A stretch of 32,561 nucleotides of DNA from Pseudomonadota bacterium (GCA_036166115.1 JAYZHY010000032.1:1-32561); one strand, 5' to 3'; positions 6,824 to 27,574 are shown, counted from the stretch's first letter. The notes: generated by a model from the letters alone, not told the origin. A program made the numbers and translations.

Positions 6824-9256
6824 ATGATTTGGTTGACCCAAAAAAAATGCCTTAGGCTTAATTATTTTTTAGCAATTCTGTCATTTTCGATCATAACTGA
6901 TCCTATATTTTCTCAGGAAAATCCGGAATCCATTCAATTTCAATTAGACAGCAACCAAATCATAAATGTTCAAAAGAAAGACGTTAACGTTAAGATAAAA
7001 ATTGATGGAAAAATTGATGAGCCAGAATGGCAGGATATTACTTCCTATGATCCCTATAAAGTAACTAAACCGGATACCCTTGCCGACACATCTTACGAAA
7101 GCAATTTAAGATTCTTTTATACTGCCAATGGATTCTATATTTCAATGGATATGAAACAACCAAAAGACACCCTAGTTAAACGCTTCAAACCCAGAGATGA
7201 CTGGCAAACCCAATCGGATAAAACGGGATTTTCAATTGATACGTCTGGAGAGGGGAAATACGGCTATTGGTTCTCAGTATCATTAGGTGGCTCAGAAGGT
7301 GATGGCACATTGATGCCCGAAAAAATTTATACTTCTGATTGGGATGGTGCATGGTATGCCGCCACATCAGAGACAGAAGATGGCTGGTCCGCAGAGTTCT
7401 ATCTGCCATGGTCGCAAGTTGCGATGCCAAAAGACGCGGATGACCGAATTATAAATTTATATAGTTTCCGAGAAGTCGCTCATTTAAACGAGGAATGGGG
7501 ATGGCCAGCACTTCCCGAATCTATGCCTCAATTCATCAGCCTTTTTCAACCAACCAGAATGAATAACGTCAACCTCAAGCAACAATGGAGTGTATTTCCT
7601 TATGCTTCGGCATCCTACGATCGAATTGACAAAGAACAATCAAATAGAGCTGGTGCCGATCTTTTCTGGCGCCCTTCAACCAACGCTCAAATAACCGCCA
7701 CAATTAATCCAGATTTTGGTGCCGTTGAAGCAGATAATGTGGTGGTAAATTTATCGGCTAACGAAACATTTTTTCCAGATAAAAGACTCTTCTTTCAAGA
7801 AGGCAATGAAGTGTTTGTCACTTCCCCTAGAGCAAGCAATCATAACTGGGGGCGCAGCAGAGTCAGTATCATAAATACCCGACGCATTGGAAGCACGCCA
7901 GATCTGCCGTCACTACCAGAAGGCGTGAGTTTTTCTGAGCGCATTAAGAAAACCACCAAAGCAGATTTGACCGGCGCTCTAAAAACTACCGGTGAATTCA
8001 ATAAATTCCGTTATGGAATCCTTGCTGCCTCTGAAGATGACACCGATTTTAAGGCTGATGACGATAAAATATACAATCAGGTAGGTCGAGATTTTGGAGC
8101 ATTGAGACTCCTGTATGAAGATACAGATCAAGGAAAGACCAAAGGCTTAGGGTTTTTGTCAACCATAGTCACAAAACCCGATACGGATTCCGTGGTCAAT
8201 GCAGTCGACATCCATTACTTGAGCGAATCTGGGGCTTGGAAAGCAGATGGTCAATATATTCATTCTAAAACACATGAAGACGGTTCTGGCCAAGGAGGTT
8301 TCTTGGATTTAGTGTACGCGCCAACCAAGGGTAGAAGCAGTCAACTCAAACTGACTGTATTTGATAAAAATATGCAGATAAATGATTTTGGGTTCAATCA
8401 AAGACGAAATACGCGTGATGCTCAGTATAATTTCACAGCCATAAATTCAAATTCAAAACGCTTTAGAGACACCTTAATGAGTGGCTATGTTCGCTATGCT
8501 GAGAACTTCGATGGACATCGAACATCAAATGCCATTGGCGGTAATTTTGATGTGACTCTCAATAGTTTGAATAAAATTAAAGGGTCTTTTGCTCATTGGC
8601 CACTTCGATTTGAAGATCGAGAGAGTTACGGCAATGGAACTTTCAAGCTTCGACCCAGATCGAGACTCAGATTTGAATATTCCACAAACAAAGCAGAGAA
8701 AATAGCTTACGGTGCGACCGTCACCTACCAAGAAGAAGACATGAAGGGCAGGAAACTTGAGGGAGAGATTGAATATACATGGTACCCAAAAACTAATATA
8801 AGTTTCGATATGAAATTAAAATATGTTGACGGGAGTGGTGGTTGGTTACTTCACCAACAAAGTAAAGACTTCACTTCGTTTTATCATCAGAAATGGGAAC
8901 AAGAGTTTAAGTTCAATTACTTTATCAACGCCAAACAACAACTGAGCATTAATCTTCAATGGGTGGGCATACAAGCGCATGAAAATAAATTTTATGTTAT
9001 TGATGCCGATAACTATAGATTAAATGAAATAAATAAACCCTATGAAGCAAGCGATAACTTCAGCATCTCAGACCTAAATATACAATTACGCTATCGCTGG
9101 CAAATAGCCCCTTTGTCTGATGTTTACTTGGTTGCCACTAAAACAGGAGCACACAGAAAACAACTTACTGCATTCAGTGATTTATTTGATGACACCATGG
9201 ATAATCCCTTGAGCGATCAAATTATCTTAAAAGTTCGTTACCGTTTTGGTTCGTAA
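6824..9256 (+). CDS. Secreted CBM9-like / DUF5916-like protein, probable outer-membrane beta-barrel (paralog 1)
   Basis: 810 aa with a signal-like N-terminus. IDGKIDEPEWQD is the D-G-x-hydrophobic-D-E-x-x-W signature I associate with family-9 carbohydrate-binding-like domains. The long C-terminal part has alternating amphipathic strands and ends ILKVRYRFGS. The family name is from memory and not verified. Confidence 0.6.
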   Translation: MIWLTQKKCLRLNYFLAILSFSIITDPIFSQENPESIQFQLDSNQIINVQKKDVNVKIKIDGKIDEPEWQDITSYDPYKVTKPDTLADTSYESNLRFFYTANGFYISMDMKQPKDTLVKRFKPRDDWQTQSDKTGFSIDTSGEGKYGYWFSVSLGGSEGDGTLMPEKIYTSDWDGAWYAATSETEDGWSAEFYLPWSQVAMPKDADDRIINLYSFREVAHLNEEWGWPALPESMPQFISLFQPTRMNNVNLKQQWSVFPYASASYDRIDKEQSNRAGADLFWRPSTNAQITATINPDFGAVEADNVVVNLSANETFFPDKRLFFQEGNEVFVTSPRASNHNWGRSRVSIINTRRIGSTPDLPSLPEGVSFSERIKKTTKADLTGALKTTGEFNKFRYGILAASEDDTDFKADDDKIYNQVGRDFGALRLLYEDTDQGKTKGLGFLSTIVTKPDTDSVVNAVDIHYLSESGAWKADGQYIHSKTHEDGSGQGGFLDLVYAPTKGRSSQLKLTVFDKNMQINDFGFNQRRNTRDAQYNFTAINSNSKRFRDTLMSGYVRYAENFDGHRTSNAIGGNFDVTLNSLNKIKGSFAHWPLRFEDRESYGNGTFKLRPRSRLRFEYSTNKAEKIAYGATVTYQEEDMKGRKLEGEIEYTWYPKTNISFDMKLKYVDGSGGWLLHQQSKDFTSFYHQKWEQEFKFNYFINAKQQLSINLQWVGIQAHENKFYVIDADNYRLNEINKPYEASDNFSISDLNIQLRYRWQIAPLSDVYLVATKTGAHRKQLTAFSDLFDDTMDNPLSDQIILKVRYRFGS

Positions 9257-9280: not shown

Positions 9281-11695
9281 ATGAACTCTATCAAACCCAT
9301 CAACTTGGGAGGTATCTTAACGCTTTACTTATCCATATTCTTCTCATCAACACTAGCTGCACAAGACAATTCTGAGTCCCTTCAAATTTCTCTTAATGAC
9401 AGCAAAATCATCGATGTTCAACAACGAGATTTAGATGTTGAAATTAAAATTGATGGTAAGATTGATGAAGCTGCATGGCAAGATATTACTTCGTTTGAGC
9501 GAATGAAGGTATCAAAGCCAGACACCCTTAAAGATCCCATTTACAAAAGCATTGTGCGCTTTTTCTATACAGTAGATGGCTTCTATTTTTCTGTAGAGAT
9601 GGAGCAACCCAAAAACACGTTAGTAAAACGCTTCACCAATAGAGATGATTGGAGAACTAAATCCGACAAAGTATCTGTCAGTATAGATACCTCAGGTGAA
9701 GCTAAATATGCTTATTGGATGGCATTGTCTTTGGGTGATTCAGAAGGGGATGGAACTTTACTTCCAGAAAGAAGGTATAGCATGGATTGGGACGGTGCTT
9801 GGTATGGAGCCACAGCTGAAACAGACAACGGTTGGTCTGCTGAGTTCTATATCCCGTGGTCACAGATGGCAATGCCTAAAAAAACCGGTGATCGAATTAT
9901 TAATATTGAAACTCACCGCATGGTGGCTCATCTTAATGAAGAGTGGTCTTGGCCGCCACTCCCAGATTCTATCCCGCAATTTTTGAGTCTTTTCCAACCC
10001 ACAAGAATGAATAACGTAAACCTCAAGCAACAATGGAGTATCTTTCCATATATGTCAGTCACACGTGATCGGATTGATGATAAGACCGCATATCAAGCTG
10101 GGGCTGATTTCTTTTGGCGTCCCTCAACCAATGCGCAAATTACAGCAACTATTAAACCTGATTTTGGAGCTGTTGAGTCTGATAATGTAATCGTCAATTT
10201 GACCGCAAACGAGACATTCTTTCCTGAAAAAAGATTGTTCTTCCAAGAAGGAAATGAAATCTTTAACGCCACACCTAGATCGGGACATCATGGGGGGCGG
10301 AACCGTTTTACTGTTATCAACACGCGCCGCATTGGCAGTGCGCCAGCACTTCCTGAATTGCCTGAAAATGTAAGTATTTCACCTCGAGATCAAAAAACTA
10401 CAAAAGCAGATCTAATCGGTGCGCTTAAAACCACGGGCCAATACAAAAAACTGCGTTATGGTGTATTGACAGCCTTCGAAGAGGATACTAATTATCGAGC
10501 AGATAACAACCAAATATACAGTCAAGTTGGACGAGACTTTGGGGCACTGCGGTTACTTTACGAAGACAGCGAGCAGGGAGACATCAAAAGCCTCGGTTTA
10601 TTATCAACCATAGTGACTAAACCAATCAGTGATTCGGTGGTGCATGCCATGGATTTCCATTACTTAACTGCATCCGGTGCTTGGAAGCTTGATGGTCAAT
10701 ATATCAATTCTGATACAGCTGACGGCAAAGGGAATGGGGGTTACACGGATATTTCATTCACGCCAAAACGAGGAAAAAAACACGATTTAAAACTGACCGT
10801 TTTTGATAAAGGCATGCAGGTCAATGACTTTGGTTATAACCAAAGAAACAATATACGTGACGTCCAATATAATAATAATTTTATTAACTCGAATACAGGT
10901 CGATTTAAAAATAGAGTAATCAGAAATTGGTTTAGGTATGGAGAAAACCTTAATGGCCAACAAGTGACCGGTGGTTTTGGCTCAGGGGTAGAGCTGCTAT
11001 TTAATAACTTACATGAAATTAAAACTGGTTTTGCTTATTTTCCGGCTCGTTATGAAGATAGAAATAGTTTTGGTAACGGGACTTATAAAATCAAACAACG
11101 CAATCGATTTGAATTTGAATATTCCACGAATGAAGCTAAGAAAATATCAGTCAAAGGGAAAATAACTTATCAGGATGAGAGTTTATATGATGGAAAACTG
11201 ACTTCTAAACTGGAAATGCTGTGGTATTTAAAAAGCAATCTAAGTATTGACGCCGAATTAGAATATGTTGAAGCAAGCGGCTGGTTATTACACCAAGAAG
11301 ACACTAATTTTACAACATTTCGGGCGCAGAAATGGCAGCCTGAGATCAAGCTCAATTATTTTGCCACCGCAAAGCAACAACTAAGTCTCAACCTTCAATG
11401 GGTGGGGATTCAAGCTAATGAAGATAAATTCTATATCATCAATAATGATAATCTCAATCTAATAGAAACGACAAAGCCAGCTGGTGACTCTGATAATTTT
11501 AGTATCTCTCAATTGAATATTCAATTTCGTTATCGCTGGCAAATAGCACCTCTCTCTGATCTTTATATCGTTGCCACCAAAACTGGTTCAAACAGAAGTA
11601 CGCTAACTTCATTCAACGAATTATATGAGGACACTATGGACAATCCGCTCAGCGATCAGATTATTTTGAAGATTCGCTACCGTTTTGGATCTTGA
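9281..11695 (+). CDS. Secreted CBM9-like / DUF5916-like protein (paralog 2)
   Basis: 804 aa, colinear with the upstream gene over the full length. Shared blocks include IDGKIDE..WQDITS, DWDGAWY, FQPTRMNNVNLKQQWS, FWRPSTNAQITATI.PDFGAVE and LSDQIILK.RYRFGS. It has a signal peptide (LSIFFSSTLAAQD). Confidence 0.6.
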   Translation: MNSIKPINLGGILTLYLSIFFSSTLAAQDNSESLQISLNDSKIIDVQQRDLDVEIKIDGKIDEAAWQDITSFERMKVSKPDTLKDPIYKSIVRFFYTVDGFYFSVEMEQPKNTLVKRFTNRDDWRTKSDKVSVSIDTSGEAKYAYWMALSLGDSEGDGTLLPERRYSMDWDGAWYGATAETDNGWSAEFYIPWSQMAMPKKTGDRIINIETHRMVAHLNEEWSWPPLPDSIPQFLSLFQPTRMNNVNLKQQWSIFPYMSVTRDRIDDKTAYQAGADFFWRPSTNAQITATIKPDFGAVESDNVIVNLTANETFFPEKRLFFQEGNEIFNATPRSGHHGGRNRFTVINTRRIGSAPALPELPENVSISPRDQKTTKADLIGALKTTGQYKKLRYGVLTAFEEDTNYRADNNQIYSQVGRDFGALRLLYEDSEQGDIKSLGLLSTIVTKPISDSVVHAMDFHYLTASGAWKLDGQYINSDTADGKGNGGYTDISFTPKRGKKHDLKLTVFDKGMQVNDFGYNQRNNIRDVQYNNNFINSNTGRFKNRVIRNWFRYGENLNGQQVTGGFGSGVELLFNNLHEIKTGFAYFPARYEDRNSFGNGTYKIKQRNRFEFEYSTNEAKKISVKGKITYQDESLYDGKLTSKLEMLWYLKSNLSIDAELEYVEASGWLLHQEDTNFTTFRAQKWQPEIKLNYFATAKQQLSLNLQWVGIQANEDKFYIINNDNLNLIETTKPAGDSDNFSISQLNIQFRYRWQIAPLSDLYIVATKTGSNRSTLTSFNELYEDTMDNPLSDQIILKIRYRFGS

Positions 11696-11784: not shown

Positions 11785-12303
11785 TTGAGCGAAAATACAA
11801 AATTAAAAGAGATGTTAATAAACTACGCATCATCTCATCAACACAAAATCAACGTTCTATTTCATTTAATTGGTATTCCAACGATCATGCTGGGTATCTG
11901 TATACCTCTTAGTTGGTTAAATTACGAGGTCTTCGGCCAATCCTTCACCGCTGCTCATGCAGTCATATTTGGTTTATTTCTCTTTTATATGACACTAGAT
12001 ATAGCTTTCTCAATTGTTTTTCTCATACTGGGATTATTGATTAATCAGTACGCAATTAACTTAAGCTTGCAATCATCTGCTGGAACTATTGCTGCAATAG
12101 CTTTTTTTGGTGGTTACACATTACAATTTATCGGACATGCAATCGAGAAATCCATGCCTGTTCTAGTTAAACACCCAATCCAGGCAAATATCGCTGCGCC
12201 GTTTTTTGTGATTGTGGAAATCTTTGGAATCCTTAAACTGAGACAAGATTTATTTGAAGAAATAAATCTTCTTGTTCAACATCACAGAGAAAAAGAGAGT
12301 TGA
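11785..12303 (+). CDS. DUF962 / Mpo1-like membrane protein
   Basis: 172 aa with a TTG start. YASSHQHKINVLFHLIGIP near the N-terminus, a later GH..E motif (FIGHAIEKS) and 3-4 hydrophobic helices fit the Mpo1/YGL010w-like family as I remember it. Confidence 0.55.
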   Translation: MSENTKLKEMLINYASSHQHKINVLFHLIGIPTIMLGICIPLSWLNYEVFGQSFTAAHAVIFGLFLFYMTLDIAFSIVFLILGLLINQYAINLSLQSSAGTIAAIAFFGGYTLQFIGHAIEKSMPVLVKHPIQANIAAPFFVIVEIFGILKLRQDLFEEINLLVQHHREKES

Positions 12304-12339
12304 TTGTCTTAATATAAAAAGAAAGATTGAGGGGTTACT

Positions 12340-12414
12340 ATCAAAAACAAAAAGAATAAATCCAAAAGAATAACAAGGCGTGCCTTTATTGGAACGTCAG
12401 CTGGTGCCGCTGCA
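12340..12414 (+). other. In-frame twin-arginine leader upstream of the tracked start of the ThDP enzyme; no ATG/GTG/TTG is available
   Basis: The codons between the in-frame TGA (12328-12330) and ATG 12415 read G V T I K N K K N K S K R I T R R A F I G T S A G A A A. TRRAFIG is a near-consensus Tat motif. GAGGGG (12329-12334) sits 5 nt upstream of ATC 12340. Confidence 0.55.
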
Positions 12415-14244
12415 ATGCTAGGTAATGGCGCTAATTCGAAGGAATCAATACAATCCGATCAAAAAATAACTGCTCCAGCACCCTCAAAATCCGAGCTTGA
12501 TCGAGATGTTGGGAGCACTGCACCACCAAATAAAATCTTAAGAGCAGCTCAACGCCCCGGATCCGACTTAATGGTTCAAACATTAAGAGATCTCAATATA
12601 GAATTTATTGCTGCAAATCCTGCATCCAGTTTTGAAGGACTCCAAGAATCCATTGTAAATTATGGAACTCCTCCAAATACTATGCCAGAACTTATAACTG
12701 CGCTTCATGAGGAATCTGCTGTAGATATGGCGCATGGTTATGCAAAATCTCAAGGTCACCCTATGGCGGTTATGCTACATGGTACAGTTGGATTGCAACA
12801 CGCGTCCATGGCGATTTATCAATGCTATCACGATAAAACCCCCGTAGTTATAATAGTCGGTCGTGATGATAAATTTTTTCGACAAGAACAAACTGCAAAT
12901 GATATTGCCGGACTGACACGAGCATTTACAAAATGGGACGCCCAACCAACTACCCTTAAAGGCGCGTTAAGCGACATTCAGCAAGCTTTTAATGAGGCGA
13001 TCACGCCGCCAATGGGGCCAACAATTGTTGTCATTGACGTTGAGTTGCAGAAAGAAGAAGCTGGAGATTTAAAAATACCAAGCTACAAACCTCCAATTTT
13101 TCAAGCTATTAGCAAAAAGGAAGCAAAACAAATAGCACAAAACCTACTTAAAGCAAATAACCCAAGACTCCAAGTTGGCAAACTAAGAACGCCAAATGGC
13201 ATTGAGAATGCGATTAAATTAGCAGAATTATCAGGTTGCTCGGTAAGAACAGCTGCTACAGGCGGACCCATGAGCTTCCCAGAACGTCATCCGCAATGTG
13301 GCAAAGGTCAAGATGATAATTATGATTATATCCTGGGTTTAGAATCCGATGGTAGGGACACATCAATTCAAGGTCCAACATTGCTCTCAAATGCTAATAA
13401 TAGAGATTTATCTGATATTGGTTTTGGTTTCATTAGAGAACCAGTTGTTCCGCCAAGGAGGGATCTCTCCGGAAATAATGATATAACCTCTGACGCTGAA
13501 GTGAGCATCCCAATTATCATTGAACAATTTAAACGTATTCAAGCAAAAGAAGATGTAAATACTATCGCCAACAGACGAAAAATACTTGCTACTGCAAACT
13601 CACAGAATTACCGACAAGCTCTAAAAGTAACGCTTGAGAAAAAAAGAAAAGGATGGAATTCAAGTCCAGTGAGCCTGGCAAGGCTATATTCTGAGTTATG
13701 GCCACTTATCAAAGATTTAGATTGGTGCCTTTCATCGCCAACTGTTTTTTCAAGCAGGCATCACATTGGGCTATGGGATCACAATAAACCATACAGCTAT
13801 CTCGGCATGCATGGTGCCGGAGGTATTGGTTACTGTATAGGTGCTTCTGCTGGAGCAGGTCTAGCTGCCAGAAGTCGTGATAGGATTGTGATCAATATTC
13901 AATGTGACGGCGATCTGAATTATACACCAGGATCTTTGTGGACGGCAGCACATCACAACCTCCCTTTATTAACCATTATGCATAATAACCGAGGATATCA
14001 TCAGGAAGTCATGTATCTGCATTATATGGCTGGCGTCCGAGGAAGAGGCACTGATCGTATGCACATTGGTACGACTCTGCGAGAACCGTTTATCGATTAC
14101 GCTAAGTTAGCAGAAGCTTATGGGGTGCAGAGTGAAGGTCCAATAGATAACCCTGAAAACCTTACAGCCGCTTACAATCGAGGTATTGAATCCGTTTTAT
14201 CAGGCAAGCCATATCTAATTGACGTAATAACAGAACCAAGATGA
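12415..14244 (+). CDS. Thiamine-diphosphate-dependent enzyme (acetolactate synthase/pyruvate oxidase superfamily), probably Tat-exported; the true start is likely upstream (about 12340)
   Basis: 609 aa from the tracked ATG. The N-domain carries the catalytic-Glu region (ALHEESAVDMAHGYAK). The C-domain carries the ThDP/Mg motif CDGDL-(X)-MHNN (x-D-G, 24 residues, N-N). The stop overlaps the next start (ATGA at 14241-14244). Confidence 0.8.
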   Translation: MLGNGANSKESIQSDQKITAPAPSKSELDRDVGSTAPPNKILRAAQRPGSDLMVQTLRDLNIEFIAANPASSFEGLQESIVNYGTPPNTMPELITALHEESAVDMAHGYAKSQGHPMAVMLHGTVGLQHASMAIYQCYHDKTPVVIIVGRDDKFFRQEQTANDIAGLTRAFTKWDAQPTTLKGALSDIQQAFNEAITPPMGPTIVVIDVELQKEEAGDLKIPSYKPPIFQAISKKEAKQIAQNLLKANNPRLQVGKLRTPNGIENAIKLAELSGCSVRTAATGGPMSFPERHPQCGKGQDDNYDYILGLESDGRDTSIQGPTLLSNANNRDLSDIGFGFIREPVVPPRRDLSGNNDITSDAEVSIPIIIEQFKRIQAKEDVNTIANRRKILATANSQNYRQALKVTLEKKRKGWNSSPVSLARLYSELWPLIKDLDWCLSSPTVFSSRHHIGLWDHNKPYSYLGMHGAGGIGYCIGASAGAGLAARSRDRIVINIQCDGDLNYTPGSLWTAAHHNLPLLTIMHNNRGYHQEVMYLHYMAGVRGRGTDRMHIGTTLREPFIDYAKLAEAYGVQSEGPIDNPENLTAAYNRGIESVLSGKPYLIDVITEPR

Positions 14245-14669
14245 ATCAAGTTATAACGAAAATCATAAATAAACGAGCATGGATTATAATTTTTCTAGGT
14301 TTTCCGATCTTTGCCGCTTCTGCTGACCTAGATAATGGGGTTTCACTCTATCTGGATCATGGGTGTTACAGCTGTCACGGATACAATGGAACTGGCAGAT
14401 ATCCATTGGCAAATGATGTCAGTGGGATTATGACCAGCGAAGAACTTTTTATTATCTTCTTACGATTAAGAGCAGATTTGAACCCAATGACCCCAACAAA
14501 CAGTATGCCAAATTATAGCGAATCGGTTATTAGTGACAAAGAAGCCAAAGATATATACGCTTATATGAAAACTTTTAAAGACGATCCACCGGAAATTGAA
14601 AATATACCCGTGCTCAAAGAAATTCTAGACAATGCAAACAGGAACCAAAATGATGAACAAAATAAGTAA
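14241..14669 (+). CDS. Monoheme class-I c-type cytochrome, secreted
   Basis: 142 aa. It has a signal peptide (AWIIIFLGFPIFAASA), a single CXXCH heme-attachment site (CYSCH) and a downstream Met-Pro (NSMPNY) that is a candidate axial ligand. Confidence 0.8.
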   Translation: MNQVITKIINKRAWIIIFLGFPIFAASADLDNGVSLYLDHGCYSCHGYNGTGRYPLANDVSGIMTSEELFIIFLRLRADLNPMTPTNSMPNYSESVISDKEAKDIYAYMKTFKDDPPEIENIPVLKEILDNANRNQNDEQNK

Positions 14670-15900
14670 AATTTTAAAACTATTCTTCACATCTTTACTG
14701 ATAATTTATTTTTACCAGCCTCTGATGGCACATCACTCAGCAGTGGCTTTCGATAAAACTAAAACTGTGACCATTTCTGGAACAATAACTCGATCAGTAT
14801 GGCGCAATCCGCATATGGCCATCAATATGGATGTAACAAATGACGATGGCAGCTCAGATTTATGGAAAATTGAAGGGCCTGGTACAACTATTCTCTCTGG
14901 ACAAGGCTTTAATAAAAAAATGTTAACCGATGCCACAAAGTCAAAAGAAAATATTACTGTAACTGTTCATCCTCTTCGGACAGGTGCCCCAGGAGGATTA
15001 CTGCAAAAAATTACGCTTGCAAATAGTGAGACATACACAGTTGGCGAAGATTACGAAGAAGTGGCAACGAATGTTCAAGAAAGAATTATTCCTTCGCTTG
15101 TAGAATGGTCACCACCTCCAGAGGGTGAAACTATACAAGAAAGAGAAGCAAAAACTCGACCAAAACAGCTGCCATTATTGGCAAACAGCCCTCGTCAAAC
15201 AAGTTTGGGGGCACTTGACCCAGAAAATCTTAATAAAAAGAGGCCTCCTGCACCCTTTGATGTAACTGGTATATGGTCTTTTAGAGGCGAAGACAGAGGG
15301 GAAACAAACTATACATCGATGTATGGTTCTTATGAGTTCAAACCACATCCAAAATTTACTGAAAAAGGTCGCAAAACTCTGGACGAGTATCTCAGCTTTG
15401 CTCGTGCTGGTAAGCGATATTATGAGCCAACGGCAAGGTGTTATCCCGCTGGGATGCCTCGCCTAATGACTCGTTATGGTGCATTAATGATGCTGCAATA
15501 CCCTACTGCAATTTACATGGTTTCCAGGCTTAATAACGAATACAGAGTTATTTGGCTGGATGGTAGAGATAGAGAACCCGTTGATACTCGCGACAACAAT
15601 TGGAATGGCGAATCCATAGGTCATTGGGAAGGCGACACCTTGGTTGTAGAGACGCTTGGATTTACCGATGAAAATCATTTAATTCAACAAGGCATCTTTA
15701 CTGGCGATCAATTAAAAATAGTTGAACGTTACTCTATGCTAAATGATGGAAATACCTTACAAATTGATTTCACAATGACTGACCCAGAACACTGGGAAGG
15801 GGAATGGAAGCATACAAAATTTAGAGATCTAACATTACGCGCCGATATCAGGGAAGCAAATTGCATTGCGGCTGATAATGAATTACTGCCAGGTATGTAA
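14650..15900 (+). CDS. Secreted two-domain protein: N-terminal HHS domain (DUF6152-like) + linker + C-terminal two-cysteine domain (called X here)
   Basis: I prefer ATG 14650 (AGGA 7 nt upstream) to the tracked 14632. Signal peptide KILKLFFTSLLIIYFYQPLMA, then HHSAVAFDKT..W.NPH. After a ~65-aa low-complexity linker comes GIW...CYPAGMPRL...RVIWLDGR...GHWEGDTLVVET...ANC. The DUF6152 name is from memory. Confidence 0.7.
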   Translation: MMNKISKILKLFFTSLLIIYFYQPLMAHHSAVAFDKTKTVTISGTITRSVWRNPHMAINMDVTNDDGSSDLWKIEGPGTTILSGQGFNKKMLTDATKSKENITVTVHPLRTGAPGGLLQKITLANSETYTVGEDYEEVATNVQERIIPSLVEWSPPPEGETIQEREAKTRPKQLPLLANSPRQTSLGALDPENLNKKRPPAPFDVTGIWSFRGEDRGETNYTSMYGSYEFKPHPKFTEKGRKTLDEYLSFARAGKRYYEPTARCYPAGMPRLMTRYGALMMLQYPTAIYMVSRLNNEYRVIWLDGRDREPVDTRDNNWNGESIGHWEGDTLVVETLGFTDENHLIQQGIFTGDQLKIVERYSMLNDGNTLQIDFTMTDPEHWEGEWKHTKFRDLTLRADIREANCIAADNELLPGM

Positions 15901-15916
15901 GAATTAAGGAAATACT

Positions 15917-16948
15917 ATGTTTAACAAGAAACGATTAACCATATATTGTTATTTATTAAGCCTATTCTTTATATTTAATAATTCTTTTGTTCAAGCACAT
16001 CATTCTCACGCCAATCTTAACAGAGAAGACATAAGAATCTACAGCGGTGTCGTGACAAGATACAGCTGGACCATGCCTCATGTGTTTCTAAAAGTAAAAG
16101 CGCCTGATCAATCTGGCGAGGTGGTTGAATACAGTATTGAAATGCTGCATCCGCCTGCCATGGCTAAACGAGGTTGGAATAAAACGAGTTTCAGGCAAGG
16201 GGATCTCATTACTTGGGAAGGACCTCATGACTTTAATGAATCAAGACATTATACCGGATTGAGTTGGGCAGAAAGGAATGATGGTTCTCGGCTTTCAATG
16301 ACTGAACAAGAAGAAGGAGAAATCAATCCTTCTACCGACTTTTCAGGTTTATGGAAAAGATCCGATTACGACCCAGAGACAGGAAAAGCAAAATTTAATC
16401 CTCATTACAAACCGCCAAAAGGTTGGCCGCTTACAAAAGTCGGTCAAAACTTGGTTGATAATTTCCATGAAGATCAAAATCCCATGGTTAACTGCGGTAA
16501 CCCTGGCCCACCCAAAGCCATGATTGTGCCTTACCCAGTAATGATAACGAGGCCTAATGATGAAACGATTGTGTTTGAGAGAGAATTAATGCAAACAGCT
16601 AGAGTTATTCATTTGGATCACCAAAAAGAGAAGGGTGCCCCATCAAAACTTGGGCACTCAATCGGACGGTTTGAAGATGGCGGCTTGATTGTTAAAACCG
16701 ATAATTTTGTTGATGATCCATGGGGATCGCATACGGGTATAGATTCCAGTAAACAAAAACACTTAACTGAGAAATTTACTCTATCAGAAGACGGTTTGTT
16801 CTTATATGCAGAAATTACTGTTGATGATCCTGTGTATTTATCAAAACCACATACCTTTTATCATCGTTGGAAAAAGATTGCTGACCGTGAAGTCATTCAA
16901 GCGCCATGCACAATGGAAAGCGCAAAATTATACCTACAAGGCGGATAA
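15917..16948 (+). CDS. Secreted two-domain protein, paralogous architecture (HHS domain + X domain)
   Basis: 343 aa with AAGGA upstream. Signal peptide ...FVQA, then HHSHANLN...W.MPH. The C-terminal half has GLW...NCGNPGPP...RVIHLDH...GRFEDGGLIVKT...APC, colinear with the preceding gene but strongly diverged. Confidence 0.7.
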   Translation: MFNKKRLTIYCYLLSLFFIFNNSFVQAHHSHANLNREDIRIYSGVVTRYSWTMPHVFLKVKAPDQSGEVVEYSIEMLHPPAMAKRGWNKTSFRQGDLITWEGPHDFNESRHYTGLSWAERNDGSRLSMTEQEEGEINPSTDFSGLWKRSDYDPETGKAKFNPHYKPPKGWPLTKVGQNLVDNFHEDQNPMVNCGNPGPPKAMIVPYPVMITRPNDETIVFERELMQTARVIHLDHQKEKGAPSKLGHSIGRFEDGGLIVKTDNFVDDPWGSHTGIDSSKQKHLTEKFTLSEDGLFLYAEITVDDPVYLSKPHTFYHRWKKIADREVIQAPCTMESAKLYLQGG

Positions 16949-16955
16949 GAAATAA

Positions 16956-17786
16956 CTACATATCATTCTTATTGATTTTCATAGAAGCCACCAAGCAACC
17001 GCAAGCAAATTCTGGGATAGGTTTGTAAAAATAAATTTTTCCTTTTCCTCCTGCAGCACCTGCCACAGCAATTGATGTTCTTATTTCAAATGCGCCTTGA
17101 CCTGCTTTTGCTAAAATATCTTCATCTTTGTAATCAGTCATTGCACAACGATCATTCTTTTGCCAGTTACTAAGAAACTCCCTGTCCCATTCCTCATTTA
17201 TTTTGCCGCTATCAGGAGTGCATGGCCAATGTGAAGTCCCACCGGTACCAATTAAAGCTATTCTCTCTGGAATGCTTTCAAAAACTTCTCTAATAGCGAC
17301 ACCAAATTTATAGCTTCTGGAAAAAGGTGTTAAAGGAGGAGATTGACAATTTATATTGGCGGGGATGATTGGAATATCATAACTTGGTGTGAGGTGATGC
17401 AAAGGCACCATCATACCGTGATCAAATTTCCACTCCTCTGAATAAGAAACATCAATTTCATTTAAGAGTAACGAAATTATCCTTTTTGATAGCTCTGCAT
17501 CACCAGGTATTCTTACTTTCTCTATACCTAACCACTGTGAATCTTCAATTGGTCCTTCATAATATTGCCCCATTCCAATCGCATAGGTTGGCATATTATT
17601 ATTGAAAAAATTTGCATAATGCTCTGCAGAAATTATGAATATAGCATCAGGCTCCACTTCTTCAATTTCTCTTTTGAGTCGAGAAAATTGAATTTTTAAT
17701 TCAGCAAGATCATTTTGATTGGCTGCTTCTGGACGGCTGGTAATTCCAGGAGCATGGCAACAAATTCCCGCATACACCAGACTCAT
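16956..17786 (-). CDS. Class-III extradiol ring-cleavage dioxygenase (LigB/MhpB family)
   Basis: 276 aa. CCHAPGI (N-terminal metal His), IISAEHY, KFDHGMMVPL and IGTGGTSHWP match the LigB-family Fe(II)-ligand and active-site blocks (compare MhpB LSHSP, APDHY, VDHG, GSGGLSH). Confidence 0.75.
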   Translation of the reverse strand: MSLVYAGICCHAPGITSRPEAANQNDLAELKIQFSRLKREIEEVEPDAIFIISAEHYANFFNNNMPTYAIGMGQYYEGPIEDSQWLGIEKVRIPGDAELSKRIISLLLNEIDVSYSEEWKFDHGMMVPLHHLTPSYDIPIIPANINCQSPPLTPFSRSYKFGVAIREVFESIPERIALIGTGGTSHWPCTPDSGKINEEWDREFLSNWQKNDRCAMTDYKDEDILAKAGQGAFEIRTSIAVAGAAGGKGKIYFYKPIPEFACGCLVASMKINKNDM

Positions 17787-17826
17787 AAAAAGATCATCTT
17801 GTTAGCATTTATTTTAAACATAATGC

Positions 17827-18480
17827 TTATTTGTCAGTAATATTCTCAGCAGTAACGCCTTCGGCTTTTAAGGCAATCTTAGTGGCTTCTCTTGCCTCCA
17901 TCCGTTTGCGATGCGCCATCCAATTTGGCATATCAGCAACATGCTCTACAACATCTTCTCTTTGGCTCCAAATATGAAATACAAATAAATAAGCATCACA
18001 AACACTATAAACGTCACCCAACGCCCATTTTTTTCCTGACAGTCGCCTTTCAACCTCCATGAGTGTATTTTTTAGATTGGGTATGCCGACCTTCAATAGT
18101 TCCGAATACAATTCCTTGCTATCGACCAATAAATTCGGTCTAAATAAAGGTCGAAATGCAATGTGGACTGTACTTGATAGAAAATTCATCCATTCGTGTG
18201 CCCTTGCCCGAGACAAAGGGTCATTCTTAGGTATAAGCTCAACAGAAGCTTTATCAGCAATATAAGATAATATTGCGTGAGTTTCAGTTAACACTTTATC
18301 CCCCGTTAGAAGTGTCGGTATCTTGCCCCAAGGATTCATTTTCTTGTAAGCGCTTTCTTTATGCTCACCCTTTCTAATTCTCACTGGCATCGCTTCATAA
18401 GCGAGGCCAGATTCTTCCAGAGCAATGTGACAGGCAAGTGAACATGCCCTGGGGCTAAAAAATAGTTTTAAATCAGTCAT
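17827..18480 (-). CDS. Glutathione S-transferase
   Basis: 217 aa. The N-terminal thioredoxin-like part (LKLFFSPRACSLACHIALEE..., NPWGKIPTL, ETHAILSYI) and the helical C-domain are typical of bacterial beta-like GSTs. It lies 40 nt upstream of, and co-directional with, the dioxygenase gene. Confidence 0.8.
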   Translation of the reverse strand: MTDLKLFFSPRACSLACHIALEESGLAYEAMPVRIRKGEHKESAYKKMNPWGKIPTLLTGDKVLTETHAILSYIADKASVELIPKNDPLSRARAHEWMNFLSSTVHIAFRPLFRPNLLVDSKELYSELLKVGIPNLKNTLMEVERRLSGKKWALGDVYSVCDAYLFVFHIWSQREDVVEHVADMPNWMAHRKRMEAREATKIALKAEGVTAENITDK

Positions 18481-18648: not shown

Positions 18649-19449
18649 ATGAATATCTATAAAACTACAATAATATTCTTTATTTTCTTCTTGGGATCAG
18701 TTTCTGCTAAAGATGAACAAGAAATTCCCGATTGGAGTGGCATTTGGGAGCGATATGAAGACAATGGAGGAATGTTTGATGTGTCTACAACTAAACCTCC
18801 AGAAGGTCGTGCCGGCAGCCCAAATGTTAGACAATTTCCACCTTTGACTCCCCTTTGGGAAGAAAAATACAAGAAAAACCTAGCATTGGTTGCAAGAGAC
18901 AGATTGCCCGATCCAATATCCATTTGTGGAACACCAGCTGGCTATCCTCGACTGCTTGCTTTACCTGATGTCTATGAATTTATAGTGCGTCCTGAAAAAA
19001 CATGGATAGTTACTGAAAACGGGCCAAATATCATGAGAATCTATACAGATGGAAGAGGCCACCCCAAAGAAAATGAGCGCTGGCCAACCTACACTGGAGA
19101 ATCTGTAGGTTCATGGGAAGGGGATGTCTTGCATTTTAAGACAGTAAGCATGATTGGAGAAAAAAACACTGTTCTAGACAGGAGTGGAATGACCTTAAGT
19201 GAAAAAGCAACTATCTCAACCAGTATTTTTAAGAATGAAGCAGGCTTACTTCGCGCGGAATTAACGATAGTCGATCCAATTGCATTAACTCAACCATGGC
19301 ATGTAACTCGTCATTTCAGAAAACTGCCCAAAGAAACACGAATATTTGATTATGCTTGTGCTGAAAATAATCGGAACCCAATTACAAACACAGGAAAAAC
19401 GCTAACTCTTGGTCCAGATGGGATACCAATCGATAAGAACATCGAATAA
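18649..19449 (+). CDS. Secreted stand-alone X-domain protein (homologous to the C-terminal halves of 14650..15900 and 15917..16948)
   Basis: I prefer ATG 18649 (MNIYKTTIIFFIFFLGSVSA|KDE signal peptide) to the tracked non-ATG start at 18571. Motifs: GIW...ICGTPAGYPRL...RIYTDGR...GSWEGDVLHFKT...YAC. Confidence 0.7.
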   Translation: MNIYKTTIIFFIFFLGSVSAKDEQEIPDWSGIWERYEDNGGMFDVSTTKPPEGRAGSPNVRQFPPLTPLWEEKYKKNLALVARDRLPDPISICGTPAGYPRLLALPDVYEFIVRPEKTWIVTENGPNIMRIYTDGRGHPKENERWPTYTGESVGSWEGDVLHFKTVSMIGEKNTVLDRSGMTLSEKATISTSIFKNEAGLLRAELTIVDPIALTQPWHVTRHFRKLPKETRIFDYACAENNRNPITNTGKTLTLGPDGIPIDKNIE

Positions 19450-19459
19450 AGAGGTTATT

Positions 19460-19855
19460 ATGCTAATACATCGAATACATAAATACTGCTTTTTAATATT
19501 AAGCCTAATATTAATTTGTTGGGGAAATTTATACGCGCATCACTCAAGCGCAATGTTTGATAAAACACACGTCCTTAAAGTAAAGGCTGTTGTAAAAGAA
19601 TTTCAATGGGCCAATCCGCATGTTTGGATACAGATATACATCCCAAATCAAAATAACAAAGAAGAATGGAGCATTGAAGGAATAGGAATAAATACATTAT
19701 TTAGAAGAGGGTGGAGGCCAAATTCTTTCCAGCCTGGTGATGAAATAGACATTAGTTTCAACCCGATGCTTGATGGTTCTCATGCAGGGCTCTTTATTGG
19801 TGCCAGATTTGAAGATGGGAAAATATTAGGAAAGTGGGAGAATACGAATAATTAG
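19460..19855 (+). CDS. Secreted stand-alone HHS-domain protein (DUF6152-like)
   Basis: I prefer ATG 19460 (GAGG 5 nt upstream, 10 nt after the previous stop) to the tracked 19409. Signal peptide ...GNLYA, then HHSSAMFDKTHVLKVKAVVKEFQWANPHVWIQ. It is 131 aa, the size I recall for this family. Confidence 0.7.
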   Translation: MLIHRIHKYCFLILSLILICWGNLYAHHSSAMFDKTHVLKVKAVVKEFQWANPHVWIQIYIPNQNNKEEWSIEGIGINTLFRRGWRPNSFQPGDEIDISFNPMLDGSHAGLFIGARFEDGKILGKWENTNN

Positions 19856-26712: not shown

Positions 26713-26728
26713 TTTCTGCAGCTGTTTT

Positions 26729-27574
26729 ATGAGTTCAGAGATTATATTTAAACGCTTAACTTGGCTTATTGTCGGAGGGCTTTGTGGTTTATTATTTGCT
26801 GGTTACGGTATATTTACAAAAATCTCCATTAATCAAACTCTTGACAGTAATACAATCGCGACCGTCAATAATGCTCTAATTACAAGAGAAACTTATTTAC
26901 GTGCAATTGATCGATACAATAGTGACACAAAAGATGCTTTGGACAAGAATGACCGTGCATGGGTTTTGCAAAGACTAATAGAAGAAGAGTTACTTGTTCA
27001 ACGTGGGTTATCGTTAGGCATAATAACAACAGACAATGATGTAAGGGGAGCCATAGTTCGCGCTCTTATCGCCTCAATAAATGCTGAGGCAGCTGCAATG
27101 ATGCCGAATGAAGAAGAACTGTTCGAATATTACAACTCAAACGAAGAAAAATTCACTTACCCAGCTACCATTTCAATTCAAGCTTGGGTCTCATCAACTG
27201 AAGAAGATGCCTTATTACTAAAAAAAGGCCTCCTTGAGAACAAGGAATCTGAAAAGTACGAAAATATTAGACTTTTGAAAAATATACCCAGTGGTCTTTT
27301 AACTTTAAATAAAATTAGAGAATATCTCGGCCCTTCTATCGCATCGGCAATCAAATTAGAAACTGAAAATAATGTAATTATTCAATACTCACAGGACAGA
27401 TGGTACATCGTCTACATTATTGAAAAAAACGTTGGTGTAGTGGAACCTTTTGAAAATATTAAACACCAAATACACAATGAATTCATTAGATCTGAAGCCG
27501 ATAAGAAGTTAAGAGAATATATCAATAACCTCAAAGACAATGCATCCATCGCTTACTCCAATGAAGCGCTATGA
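26729..27574 (+). CDS. Membrane-anchored PpiD/SurA-like periplasmic chaperone / degenerate parvulin-type PPIase
   Basis: 281 aa with an N-terminal TM helix (LTWLIVGGLCGLLFAGYGIF). IATVNNALITRETYLRAI and LIEEELLVQRGLSLGI resemble the SurA/PpiD N-terminal chaperone domain. The C-terminal part is only weakly parvulin-like. The assignment is tentative. Confidence 0.45.
   Translation: MSSEIIFKRLTWLIVGGLCGLLFAGYGIFTKISINQTLDSNTIATVNNALITRETYLRAIDRYNSDTKDALDKNDRAWVLQRLIEEELLVQRGLSLGIITTDNDVRGAIVRALIASINAEAAAMMPNEEELFEYYNSNEEKFTYPATISIQAWVSSTEEDALLLKKGLLENKESEKYENIRLLKNIPSGLLTLNKIREYLGPSIASAIKLETENNVIIQYSQDRWYIVYIIEKNVGVVEPFENIKHQIHNEFIRSEADKKLREYINNLKDNASIAYSNEAL

What the first reader, a model, noticed from the sequence alone, without database searches (positions are those of the whole stretch)
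14650..16948. Secreted domain with predicted mature N-terminus His-His-Ser and invariant W24, P27, H28: histidine-brace-like metal site?
In all three copies (nt 14731, 15998 and 19538 onward) the predicted signal-peptidase site (LMA|, VQA|, LYA|) is followed directly by HHS. Counting from that His, W24, P27 and H28 lie at identical positions: HHSAVAFDKTKTVTISGTITRSVWRNPH, HHSHANLNREDIRIYSGVVTRYSWTMPH and HHSSAMFDKTHVLKVKAVVKEFQWANPH. The rest of the domain is much less conserved.

A free N-terminal His paired with a second His is the architecture of the copper histidine brace in LPMOs and CopC-type proteins. So a mononuclear Cu (or other metal) site is a reasonable hypothesis. I believe the domain corresponds to Pfam DUF6152, which as far as I remember has no assigned function.
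Basis: partly seen in the sequence, partly recalled or inferred. Interest (0 to 1): 0.7.

Follow-up and report, generated by a model that had tools for sequence, protein, structure and literature searches.

The report
Secreted OB-fold domain, His-His N-terminus
Three exported proteins in this marine bacterial contig carry an uncharacterised small barrel domain (DUF6152) whose processed end always starts His-His and probably holds a metal ion, and it nearly always comes paired with a second, undescribed barrel domain.

Summary
All three ORFs hit Pfam DUF6152. In 150 representatives of about 11,400 clusters (50% identity), H1, H2, P27 and H28 are invariant and position 24 is aromatic. The His-His always directly follows an AXA-type signal-peptidase site, and the HH-to-PH spacing is fixed at 24 residues.

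The AlphaFold model (pLDDT 89) is an OB fold, not the LPMO or CopC sandwich. I could not measure the His1-His28 distance, because the tools give no coordinates. A metal site built from the processed N-terminus is still the best reading, with Cu favoured. Zn, Ni or Co trafficking, or haem ligation, are not excluded.

New findings:
- DUF6152 forms a conserved module with a roughly 210-residue calycin-like barrel ("X") that has no Pfam model. X is fused twice here and is a separate adjacent gene once. About 70 of 80 loci from several phyla show the pairing.
- Both fusions sit in an operon with a cytochrome c and a TPP enzyme that carries a twin-arginine export signal, so all four products are predicted to be periplasmic.

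No paper in the library mentions the family, and no solved structure is related by sequence.

The parts
12340..14244 (+). Context: TPP-dependent enzyme, first gene of the operon. It probably starts at a rare ATC codon (12340) after a GAGGGG Shine-Dalgarno-like sequence. The N-terminus KSKRITRRAFIGTSAGAAAML is a twin-arginine (Tat) export signal.
   Evidence: Pfam TPP_enzyme_N and TPP_enzyme_C. The in-frame, stop-free upstream extension and the RRxF(L/I)G motif are conserved in orthologues in L020, L022, L025, L026 and L032. The start codon is an inference.
14241..14669 (+). Context: monohaem cytochrome c with a signal peptide and a CYSCH motif. Its start overlaps the TPP gene's stop codon.
   Evidence: Pfam Cytochrom_C, E 5e-10. 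Sequence. The same position is kept in L004-L007.
14650..14730 (+). Signal peptide of fusion protein A (MMNKISKILKLFFTSLLIIYFYQPLMA|).
14731..15039 (+). DUF6152 OB domain of fusion A (mature residues 1-103). Codons: H1-H2 14731-14736, W24 14800-14802, P27-H28 14809-14814, E48 14872-14874.
   Evidence: Pfam PF19649, E 8e-21. AF2 model md5c3200bf929 has strands 13-25, 28-36, 42-48, helix 52-57, then strands 74-82 and 88-95.
15040..15255 (+). Conserved linker of fusion A (IPSLVEW.PPP.GET.QERE.KTRP...GALDP). Partly low pLDDT, but with invariant P121, R138 and R143.
   Evidence: Alignment A2; per-block pLDDT.
15256..15900 (+). Domain X of fusion A: a roughly 10-stranded beta-barrel with a G-x-W start motif (FDVTGIW), two invariant Cys and no Pfam model.
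15917..16948 (+). Fusion protein B: signal peptide 15917-15997, DUF6152 domain from 15998 (H1-H2 15998-16003, W24 16067-16069, P27-H28 16076-16081, E48 16139-16141), domain X from about 16337 (DFSGLW).
   Evidence: Pfam PF19649, E 4e-14. BLASTP against fusion A matches both domains. Orthologues of about 340 aa hold the same operon position in L004-L012, L022, L025, L026 and L032.
18649..19449 (+). Stand-alone domain X protein (266 aa from ATG 18649; signal peptide MNIYKTTIIFFIFFLGSVSA|), directly upstream of the stand-alone DUF6152 gene.
   Evidence: BLASTP E 1e-14 to the C-terminal part of fusion A. 1210 homologues, none with a Pfam domain or an informative name. Public annotation uses the 266-aa start.
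19460..19855 (+). Stand-alone DUF6152 protein: signal peptide 19460-19537, mature OB domain 19538-19852 (H1-H2 19538-19543, W24 19607-19609, P27-H28 19616-19621, E47 19676-19678).
   Evidence: Pfam PF19649, E 9e-27. AF2 model m239a6acb7831, pLDDT 89.4, pTM 0.82. Foldseek matches OB folds.

Best explanation
DUF6152 is a Sec-exported OB-fold domain of about 100 residues. Signal peptidase I cuts after an AXA site, so the mature protein begins His1-His2.

I propose that the free alpha-amine and the imidazoles of His1 and His2, together with invariant His28, hold one metal ion. His28 lies in the W-x-N-P-H turn between strands 1 and 2. Glu48 on the neighbouring strand 3 probably contributes, and the aromatic residue at position 24 probably packs over the site. 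A redox-active type-2 copper is the most likely metal.

The domain does not work alone. It is fused to, or translationally coupled with, a calycin/lipocalin-like barrel (domain X). X varies between paralogues while the His site never does. I therefore read X as the part that binds a small molecule and gives specificity, and DUF6152 as the part that supplies constant metal chemistry.

In this window the two fused copies are co-transcribed with a periplasmic cytochrome c and a Tat-exported TPP enzyme. The module therefore most likely acts in periplasmic oxidative processing of an organic substrate, with the cytochrome as electron partner.

Shown: family membership, export signal, invariant residues, fixed spacing, OB fold, D-X linkage, operon structure.
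Inferred: His1/His2 lie next to His28; a metal binds; the metal is Cu; the role is catalytic; cytochrome c is the redox partner.
For: Export and invariant residues:
- H1, H2, P27 and H28 are invariant, and position 24 is aromatic, in 150 diverse representatives and in 41 remote members. In every one of these sequences that keeps its N-terminus, His-His directly follows an AXA site.
- The HH-to-PH spacing is exactly 24 residues in 375/377 sequences. The N-terminal segment therefore tolerates no indels, as expected for a packed element rather than a floppy tail.
- The N-terminal decapeptide is modelled with pLDDT 77 and contains a helical turn and a beta-bridge.

Site layout:
- By OB topology, H28 (start of strand 2) and E47/E48 (end of strand 3) are cross-strand neighbours (inference).
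- Loss of E48 is enriched in members where Ser3 is Ala: 8/26 against 4/497. This amounts to only about two clades.

Partner domain:
- X is fused to, or adjacent to, DUF6152 in about 70 of 80 loci from Woeseiaceae, Acidobacteriota, Steroidobacteraceae, Caulobacterales and Acidimicrobiia. The median intergenic gap is 4 nt. Arrays reach 7 pairs.
- The fused form has 1974 homologues.
- X paralogues share about 25% identity, while the His site stays constant.

Periplasmic redox context:
- The TPP(Tat)-cytochrome c-fusion-fusion operon is conserved down to 67% identity.
- ORFs with a CxxCH motif are enriched within 3 genes of the module (27/481 vs 8/353, p = 0.02).
- PQQ quinohaemoprotein dehydrogenases neighbour the module in 14 loci.
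- Several other neighbours carry signal peptides.

Own knowledge: an N-terminal His amine plus imidazole with a further His is the Cu site of LPMOs, CopC, PmoB and X325. NH2-Xaa-His is a high-affinity Cu(II) motif. Aromatic capping of Cu occurs in CusF and LPMOs.
Against: - The geometry was never measured: no coordinates are available from the tool, and the mean-field DCA was uninformative.
- In an OB fold, strand 1 starts at the end of the barrel opposite the strand 1-2 turn. Residues 1-12 must therefore run back along the barrel for His1 to reach His28. This is possible but not shown.
- The fold is unrelated to any known histidine-brace family.
- No cop, cus or multicopper-oxidase genes recur nearby.
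- Neighbours also include a Co-type nitrile hydratase operon (12 loci) and TonB-dependent receptors. These fit metal or ligand uptake as well as catalysis.
- The CxxCH enrichment is modest, and the loci are phylogenetically non-independent.
- Six loci have tandem DUF6152 genes with no X, so X is not obligatory.
Confidence: 0.4

Rival explanations
1. Metal trafficking rather than catalysis. The N-terminal His-His/His28 site binds Zn, Ni, Co or Cu. The protein then acts as a periplasmic metallochaperone, buffer or uptake component, comparable to ZinT, CopC or CusF. It would hand the metal to transporters or to periplasmic enzymes. X would serve as a docking or metallophore-binding barrel.
For: - The same invariant His set and export signal as for the best explanation.
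- The X-DUF6152 pair sits in one operon with an amidohydrolase and a Co-type (VCTLCSC) nitrile hydratase in 12 loci.
- TonB-dependent receptors are interleaved with D-X pairs in L065, L066 and L072.
- A HupE/UreJ-type membrane protein lies 8 kb away in the window.
- Own knowledge: ZinT is a calycin-like periplasmic Zn chaperone whose mature N-terminus is His-rich (HGHHSH). N-terminal amine plus His coordination is typical of Ni/Co proteins such as NiSOD, RcnR and HypA.
Against: - Metal chaperones are usually single-copy. Here there are 3 modules in 5 kb, and up to 7 pairs per locus, with strongly diverged X barrels.
- No znu, nik, cop or cus genes recur nearby.
- The operon partners in this window are a cytochrome c and a TPP enzyme, not transporters.
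Confidence: 0.25
2. Cofactor ligation. His1, His2 or His28, or the N-terminal amine, act as axial ligands to a haem or other tetrapyrrole held in or near the X barrel. The D-X module would then be an electron carrier between periplasmic dehydrogenases and c-type cytochromes.
For: - Association with cytochrome c and PQQ quinohaemoproteins.
- X resembles calycin barrels, and X has no invariant His of its own.
- Foldseek lists the OB-fold haem chaperone CcmE among the matches, at rank 28.
- A SOUL haem-binding-family gene lies near the module in L005-L007.
- Own knowledge: some calycin barrels (nitrobindin, nitrophorin) bind haem. Cytochrome f uses its N-terminal amine as a haem ligand.
Against: - The CcmE match is generic OB similarity (TM 0.46).
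- No haem-binding motif is present.
- DUF6152 also occurs in tandem arrays with no X.
- Three invariant His plus a Glu look more like a mononuclear metal site than an axial ligand pair.
- The SOUL neighbour is seen only in close relatives.
Confidence: 0.1
3. No metal or cofactor. The invariant N-terminal His-His and the NPH turn are structural, for example a plug or latch of the OB barrel or the interface with X. Alternatively they act as general acid/base or ligand-recognition residues in a binding protein linked to TonB-dependent uptake.
For: - Fixed spacing and conserved F7/D8 show that the N-terminal segment is an integral, packed part of the fold.
- OB folds are classic ligand-binding modules.
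- The D-X multiplicity next to TonB-dependent receptors resembles families of substrate-binding proteins.
Against: - Absolute invariance of three His across more than 11,000 clusters, while hydrophobic core positions vary, is unusual for a purely structural role.
- Selection for the His-His to sit exactly at the signal-peptidase cut implies that the free amine or terminal position matters.
Confidence: 0.15

Closest known systems
Histidine-brace copper proteins (LPMOs AA9-AA17, CopC, PmoB CuB site, X325, YcnI)
   Same: They are secreted, signal-peptide cleavage exposes His1, at least one further conserved His is present, and a conserved aromatic residue lies nearby. LPMOs also take electrons from cytochrome domains (own knowledge). 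A cytochrome c gene is co-transcribed with the module here.
   Different: - The fold is an OB barrel, not an Ig/FnIII/cupredoxin-like sandwich.
- No Pfam or sequence relationship exists.
- His2 is invariant here but not in brace families.
- Cu binding and the T-shaped geometry are untested.
CusF / SilF (periplasmic OB-fold Cu(I)/Ag(I) chaperone)
   Same: A small periplasmic OB fold, a metal site using a His on strand 2 with a Trp cap, and a His-rich mature N-terminus (own knowledge).
   Different: - The CusF ligands are His36, Met47 and Met49. DUF6152 has no conserved Met or Cys.
- No cusCBA genes are nearby.
ZinT/YodA (periplasmic zinc chaperone)
   Same: A calycin-like barrel combined with a His-rich processed N-terminus in a periplasmic protein (own knowledge). 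X is calycin-like.
   Different: - In ZinT the His-rich tail and the barrel are one domain. Here the His-His sits on a separate OB domain.
- X does not hit the ZinT Pfam model or any other Pfam model, even at E <= 10.
- No znu context is present.
TIMP N-terminal domain
   Same: A secreted OB fold whose function depends on the free alpha-amine of residue 1 created by signal-peptide cleavage. In TIMP this amine chelates a metal, the protease's Zn (own knowledge).
   Different: TIMP uses Cys1 and ligates a partner's metal. It is eukaryotic and disulfide-rich. It shows no sequence relationship and was not among the Foldseek top hits.
Generic OB folds found by Foldseek (LysRS anticodon-binding domain, ExoVII large subunit, Rim1/SSB, CcmE)
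   Same: Five-stranded barrel with a helix between strands 3 and 4; TM 0.45-0.57, probability 1.0.
   Different: All are intracellular nucleic-acid binders, apart from CcmE. Sequence identity is 5-14%, and none has the N-terminal His-His or the NPH turn.
Lipocalin/FABP/avidin (calycin) barrels, compared with domain X
   Same: A beta-barrel of about 10 strands. Foldseek matches CRBP4, SAHS, the dinoflagellate luciferase domain and wilavidin. X has a G-x-W motif on its first strand and a conserved Arg near its C-terminus, like lipocalin SCR1/SCR3 (own knowledge).
   Different: The matches are weak (E 7e-3 to 8e-2, TMt 0.23-0.55). X matches no Pfam lipocalin model. X also has a long conserved N-terminal helical insert and two invariant Cys.

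Membership tests
Pfam PF19649 (DUF6152) | Match to the family HMM above the gathering score (27 bits) | tested here: met
   74.4, 52.9 and 93.4 bits for the three ORFs.
OB fold | Five-stranded closed beta-barrel with a helix between strands 3 and 4 | tested here: met
   AF2 model with pLDDT 89.4: strands 13-25, 28-36, 41-47, helix 51-56, strands 69-77, 83-91. Foldseek probability 1.0 and TM 0.45-0.57 to LysRS, ExoVII, SSB and CcmE OB domains. This rests on a predicted structure, not a solved one.
Histidine-brace copper proteins (LPMO / CopC / PmoB type) | Mature N-terminus is His1, created by signal-peptide cleavage | tested here: met
   A|HHS junction with -1 Ala in 130/143 and -3 small or aliphatic in 141/143. 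This is a prediction from sequence rules; SignalP and protein sequencing were not available.
Histidine-brace copper proteins (LPMO / CopC / PmoB type) | A second His side chain lies within bonding distance of the same metal as the His1 amine and ND1 (T-shaped N3) | not testable with these tools
   Structure prediction returns no coordinates. The DCA was uninformative. The only indirect hints are the fixed 24-residue spacing and the Ser3/Glu48 co-variation.
Histidine-brace copper proteins (LPMO / CopC / PmoB type) | Immunoglobulin/FnIII- or cupredoxin-like beta-sandwich fold, and homology to AA9-AA17, CopC or PmoB | tested here: not met
   The fold is OB. Only PF19649 is hit in Pfam. There is no PDB sequence relative.
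Histidine-brace copper proteins (LPMO / CopC / PmoB type) | Stoichiometric Cu binding | not testable with these tools
   This needs purified protein (ICP-MS, EPR).
CusF family | Sequence homology and the His/Met/Met Cu(I) ligand set | tested here: not met
   hhalign probability 1.5%. No conserved Met or Cys in DUF6152. No CusF Pfam hit.
Calycin/lipocalin superfamily (domain X) | Eight- to ten-stranded antiparallel barrel with a G-x-W motif on strand A and a conserved Arg near the C-terminus | tested here: inconclusive
   The AF2 fusion model shows about 10 strands in residues 180-367. Foldseek matches to CRBP4, SAHS, luciferase and avidin are weak. The D[WF][ST]G.W and F-R motifs are conserved. 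No Pfam lipocalin model matches, even at E <= 10.
Tat-exported proteins (the neighbouring TPP enzyme) | Twin-arginine motif S/T-R-R-x-F-L-K followed by a hydrophobic stretch at the N-terminus | tested here: met
   ITRRAFIGTSAGAAAML is in frame upstream of the listed start, and the same motif is present in five orthologues. The start codon (ATC at 12340) is inferred.

The most novel reading that the evidence does not exclude
DUF6152 plus X is a new class of periplasmic mononuclear-copper oxygenase or oxidase. It would be a histidine-brace-type centre built on an OB fold, reduced by c-type cytochromes. It would act on small organic substrates held in a diversifying lipocalin-like barrel. In effect this would be LPMO- or pMMO-like chemistry for dissolved or hydrophobic organic matter in abundant sediment bacteria, and in this operon it would work together with the first described Tat-exported, periplasmic TPP enzyme.
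Probability: 0.15. Interest if true: 0.9.

Novelty: new variant of a known kind. Interest (0 to 1): 0.68.

Why it matters
Metal centres built from a processed N-terminal His underlie LPMOs, particulate methane monooxygenase and CopC-type copper handling. All known examples sit on beta-sandwich folds.

DUF6152 would put such a centre on an OB fold. The family has more than 11,000 clusters at 50% identity and is spread across Pseudomonadota, Acidobacteriota and Actinomycetota. It includes Woeseiaceae, which I know as core members of marine sediments.

The conserved coupling to an undescribed barrel domain, to cytochromes c and to a Tat-exported TPP enzyme points to an unrecognised periplasmic redox or catabolic system.

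Even if the site turns out to be a Zn, Ni or Co trafficking site, a large DUF and a family absent from Pfam would gain a testable function. The stand-alone 105-residue protein is an easy experimental target.

Tried and rejected
1. Measuring His1-His28 geometry: impossible. Structure prediction exposes only pLDDT and secondary structure, and no model files appear in /data.
2. Mean-field DCA on 479 unique domain sequences (Meff 249), to locate the N-terminal segment: the top couplings were gap artefacts and nothing was usable.
3. PDB sequence and profile searches for DUF6152, the fusion and X: only noise.
4. Pfam for X at E <= 10, and NCBIfam for all D/X proteins: nothing.
5. hhalign against CusF: no homology.
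6. Literature: 'DUF6152' and 'PF19649' return 0 papers. Every query on 'histidine brace' or 'YcnI' timed out. Comparisons with known brace proteins therefore rest on my own knowledge.
A1 was used instead, which biases the 80 loci towards the stand-alone subfamily.
8. Riboswitch or regulatory RNA in the window: none. The promoter/terminator scan was not above the shuffled background.
9. LPMO or CopC membership: rejected on fold and on lack of homology.
10. A purely copper-homeostasis role: disfavoured, because no cop or cus genes recur among 355 neighbouring ORFs.
Full report
**1. The observation**

The + strand carries three ORFs: 14632/14650-15900 (422 or 416 aa), 15917-16948 (343 aa) and 19409/19460-19855 (148 or 131 aa). 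Each begins with a basic n-region and a hydrophobic stretch, followed by LMA|HHS, VQA|HHS or LYA|HHS. Counted from His1, W24, P27 and H28 align without gaps in all three copies. Overall identity between the copies is only 26-32%.

**2. The pattern holds across the family**

A profile of the three copies plus ten relatives finds 11,438 clusters (50% identity) at E <= 1e-3, and 4,598 at E <= 1e-10.

In the best 150 representatives:
- H1 and H2 are present in all 145 sequences that are not N-terminally truncated.
- P27 and H28 are present in 150/150.
- S3 is present in 140 (otherwise Ala).
- Position 24 is W in 130, F in 11 and Y in 5.
- N26 is present in 145, E48 in 147, and F7, D8, G17, W45, G59, G68, D69 and P77 each in 132 or more.

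The residue before His1 is Ala in 130/143 (Gly 8, Ser 2). The -3 residue is A, V, S, L, T or I in 141/143. Wherever a gene call has a long N-terminal extension, a hydrophobic stretch still directly precedes HHS, which indicates a mis-called start rather than an internal His-His.

Forty-one weak members found in related loci (E 1e-11 to 1e-28) keep H1, H2, P27 and H28 without exception. In these members S3 relaxes to A, G or E, and E48 to Q, A or D. The distance from HH to PH is exactly 24 residues in 375 of 377 sequences. The minimal invariant set is therefore His1, His2, an aromatic residue at 24, Pro27 and His28. Selection keeps His-His precisely at the predicted signal-peptidase cut.

**3. 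The fold**

With a 76-sequence alignment, AlphaFold2 gives a confident model of the mature stand-alone protein (pLDDT 89.4, pTM 0.82). It has strands 13-25, 28-36 and 41-47, a helix at 51-56, and strands 69-77, 83-91 and 96-98. The first ten residues average pLDDT 77 and contain a helical turn (4-6) and a beta-bridge at residue 7. Foldseek against the PDB returns only OB folds: the LysRS anticodon-binding domain, ExoVII, Rim1/SSB and CcmE. These have probability 1.0 and TM 0.45-0.57 but only 5-14% identity.

The domain is therefore an OB barrel, not the beta-sandwich of LPMOs or CopC. W24-x-N26-P27-H28 is the turn between strands 1 and 2. E47/E48 ends strand 3, so by topology it is a cross-strand neighbour of H28 (inference).

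The tool does not release coordinates. The decisive His1-His28 distance therefore could not be measured. A DCA attempt was swamped by gap artefacts.

Three indirect hints suggest that the N-terminus belongs to the same site:
- The N-terminal segment never gains or loses a residue.
- Its modelled confidence is moderate rather than tail-like.
- Loss of Glu48 is enriched among members with Ala3 (8/26 against 4/497), although this amounts to roughly two clades.

**4. A conserved partner domain**

The C-terminal ~210 residues of the two long ORFs are homologous to each other. They are also homologous to ORF 18571/18649-19449, which has its own signal peptide and ends 10 nt before the stand-alone DUF6152 gene (BLASTP E 1e-14). 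The window thus holds three DUF6152-plus-X modules: two fused in the order D-X, and one split in the order X then D.

Features of X:
- It has no Pfam match, even at E <= 10, and no NCBIfam model.
- It has 1210 homologues, all unnamed.
- The fused architecture has 1974 homologues.
- The fusion model (pLDDT 82.9, pTM 0.76) shows a barrel of about ten strands for X.
- The barrel weakly resembles calycins: CRBP4, SAHS, the dinoflagellate luciferase domain and an avidin.
- It keeps a D[WF][ST]G.W motif on its first strand, a conserved Arg near its C-terminus, two invariant Cys and no invariant His.

Distribution of the D-X pairing:
- In 80 loci recovered from species-representative genomes, X is adjacent or fused to DUF6152 in about 70. 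The genomes are Woeseiaceae, Vicinamibacterales and other Acidobacteriota, Steroidobacteraceae, Caulobacterales, Rariloculaceae and Acidimicrobiia. The median gap is 4 nt.
- Arrays reach seven pairs (L065).
- Six loci instead carry three or four tandem DUF6152 genes with no X.

**5. Genomic context**

The two fusions are the last genes of a tightly packed operon. The TPP enzyme's stop codon overlaps the cytochrome c start. Fusion A starts inside the end of the cytochrome c gene. Fusion B follows after 16 nt.

The order TPP enzyme, cytochrome c, fusion of about 415 aa, fusion of about 342 aa is kept in relatives with stand-alone copies about 80% identical (L005-L007), and in a 5.8-Mb Woeseiaceae chromosome whose fusion A is 67% identical (L004). 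In both cases a separate X-then-D pair lies nearby.

The TPP enzyme has an in-frame upstream extension reading KSKRITRRAFIGTSAGAAAML. This is a twin-arginine signal, and orthologues carry it too. In the window it lacks an ATG, GTG or TTG start, and it probably initiates at ATC 12340 after a GAGGGG sequence. All four operon products are therefore predicted to be periplasmic.

Recurrent neighbours of the X-D pair elsewhere:
- PQQ quinohaemoprotein dehydrogenases (14 loci)
- FAA-hydrolase-family proteins (13 loci)
- nitrile hydratase (12 loci; Co-type, checked in L001)
- the TPP enzyme (10 loci)
- GSTs
- amidohydrolases
- TonB-dependent receptors
- cytochromes c

Several of these neighbours have signal peptides. 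ORFs with a CxxCH motif are about 2.6-fold enriched within three genes of the module (p = 0.02, not corrected for phylogeny). No cop, cus, znu or nik genes recur.

**6. Most likely mechanism**

Shown: Sec-type export signal, AXA cleavage context, invariant His1/His2/His28, rigid spacing, OB fold, obligate-like pairing with a diversifying barrel, and a periplasmic redox context.

Inferred: the free N-terminal amine and imidazoles, with His28 (and probably Glu48, capped by Trp24), bind one metal ion. X presents a small-molecule ligand. The cytochrome is the electron partner.

I favour copper for two reasons. An N-terminal His amine plus imidazole with a further His is the copper brace, and NH2-Xaa-His is a strong Cu(II) motif (own knowledge). 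Also, a constant metal site with variable barrels, multiplied in catabolic and periplasmic neighbourhoods, looks more like an enzyme family than a chaperone.

My confidence in this full reading is about 0.4. My confidence that some metal site involves the processed N-terminus is about 0.65.

**7. Rivals**

- Non-catalytic Zn, Ni, Co or Cu trafficking, supported by the Co-NHase operons, TonB-dependent receptors and the ZinT analogy (0.25).
- His or amine ligation of a haem or tetrapyrrole, making the module an electron carrier (0.1).
- A structural or ligand-recognition role with no metal (0.15).

**8. Comparison with known families and novelty**

Membership in DUF6152 and in the OB fold is met. 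Membership in LPMO, CopC or PmoB families is not met on fold or on homology, although the proposed working principle may be the same. CusF shares only the fold class (hhalign probability 1.5%). TIMP is a functional analogy: an OB fold whose free residue-1 amine chelates a metal.

No paper in the searchable library mentions DUF6152 or PF19649, and no solved structure is related by sequence. I rate the finding as a new variant of a known kind: a metal centre built from an N-terminal His, on a new scaffold and with a new partner domain. Interest is 0.68.

The most novel reading that the evidence does not exclude is a cytochrome-fed periplasmic copper oxygenase family (probability about 0.15).

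Noticed in passing
window 12331-12414 (upstream of the ORF listed as 12415-14244): The TPP-dependent enzyme carries a twin-arginine export signal (KSKRITRRAFIGTSAGAAAML) in a stop-free, in-frame extension with no ATG, GTG or TTG. A GAGGGG Shine-Dalgarno-like sequence precedes an ATC at 12340, which suggests a rare start codon. Orthologues in L020, L022, L025, L026 and L032 have the same RR motif. To my knowledge, a Tat-exported periplasmic TPP enzyme next to a cytochrome c has not been described. Pfam finds only the N- and C-terminal TPP domains, not the middle domain.
   Followed up: partly
window 18649-19449; 15256-15900; 16337-16948: Domain X is a large family (1210 or more stand-alone and about 1970 fused homologues) with no Pfam or NCBIfam model. 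It is predicted to be a calycin-like barrel with a G-x-W motif and two invariant Cys. It deserves a family definition of its own.
   Followed up: partly
L065 (2068-17114), L044 (6238-16596), L066, L072: Arrays of up to seven DUF6152/X pairs within 20 kb, interleaved with TonB-dependent receptor genes. The gene order within a pair varies (D then X, or X then D).
   Followed up: partly
L070, L071, L078, L082, L085, L086: Three or four tandem DUF6152 genes with no X in Micropepsaceae and other Alphaproteobacteria and in a MAG labelled uncultured Bordetella sp. They are always flanked by a GNAT acetyltransferase and a divergently transcribed protein of about 208 aa with no Pfam match. In three of the six loci (L070, L071, L085) an MFS transporter lies just downstream.
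   Followed up: no
L001 7198-12849 and 11 other loci: The X-DUF6152 pair is co-transcribed with a signal-peptide-bearing amidohydrolase and a cobalt-type (VCTLCSC) nitrile hydratase whose beta subunit is split into two genes. FAA-hydrolase-family and PQQ-dehydrogenase neighbours also carry signal peptides.
   Followed up: partly
window 6824-9256 and 9281-11695: Two adjacent paralogous DUF5916 proteins of about 800 aa. The same pair stays near the DUF6152 cluster in relatives L005-L007, although the gene order around it is rearranged. An Mpo1-like gene (11785-12303) travels with the cluster in the same way.
   Followed up: no
window 24370-28791: A DUF3604 protein (780 aa), a SurA-like PPIase and a HupE/UreJ_2 membrane protein lie in one + strand run. 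HupE/UreJ proteins are linked to Ni/Co transport, which may be relevant to which metal DUF6152 binds, but the cluster is 8 kb away.
   Followed up: no
window 16956-18480 (- strand): A LigB-type extradiol dioxygenase and a GstA-like glutathione transferase sit between the fusion operon and the X/DUF6152 pair. They are conserved there in L005-L007, and the GST also in L004. Neither has a signal peptide. They hint at catabolism of aromatic compounds.
   Followed up: no
fusion A linker, window 15040-15255: The ~75-residue segment between the OB domain and X is highly conserved (invariant P121, R138, R143; motif PPP.GETWQERE.KTRP), although part of it is modelled with low confidence. It may be a docking element rather than a passive linker.
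   Followed up: no
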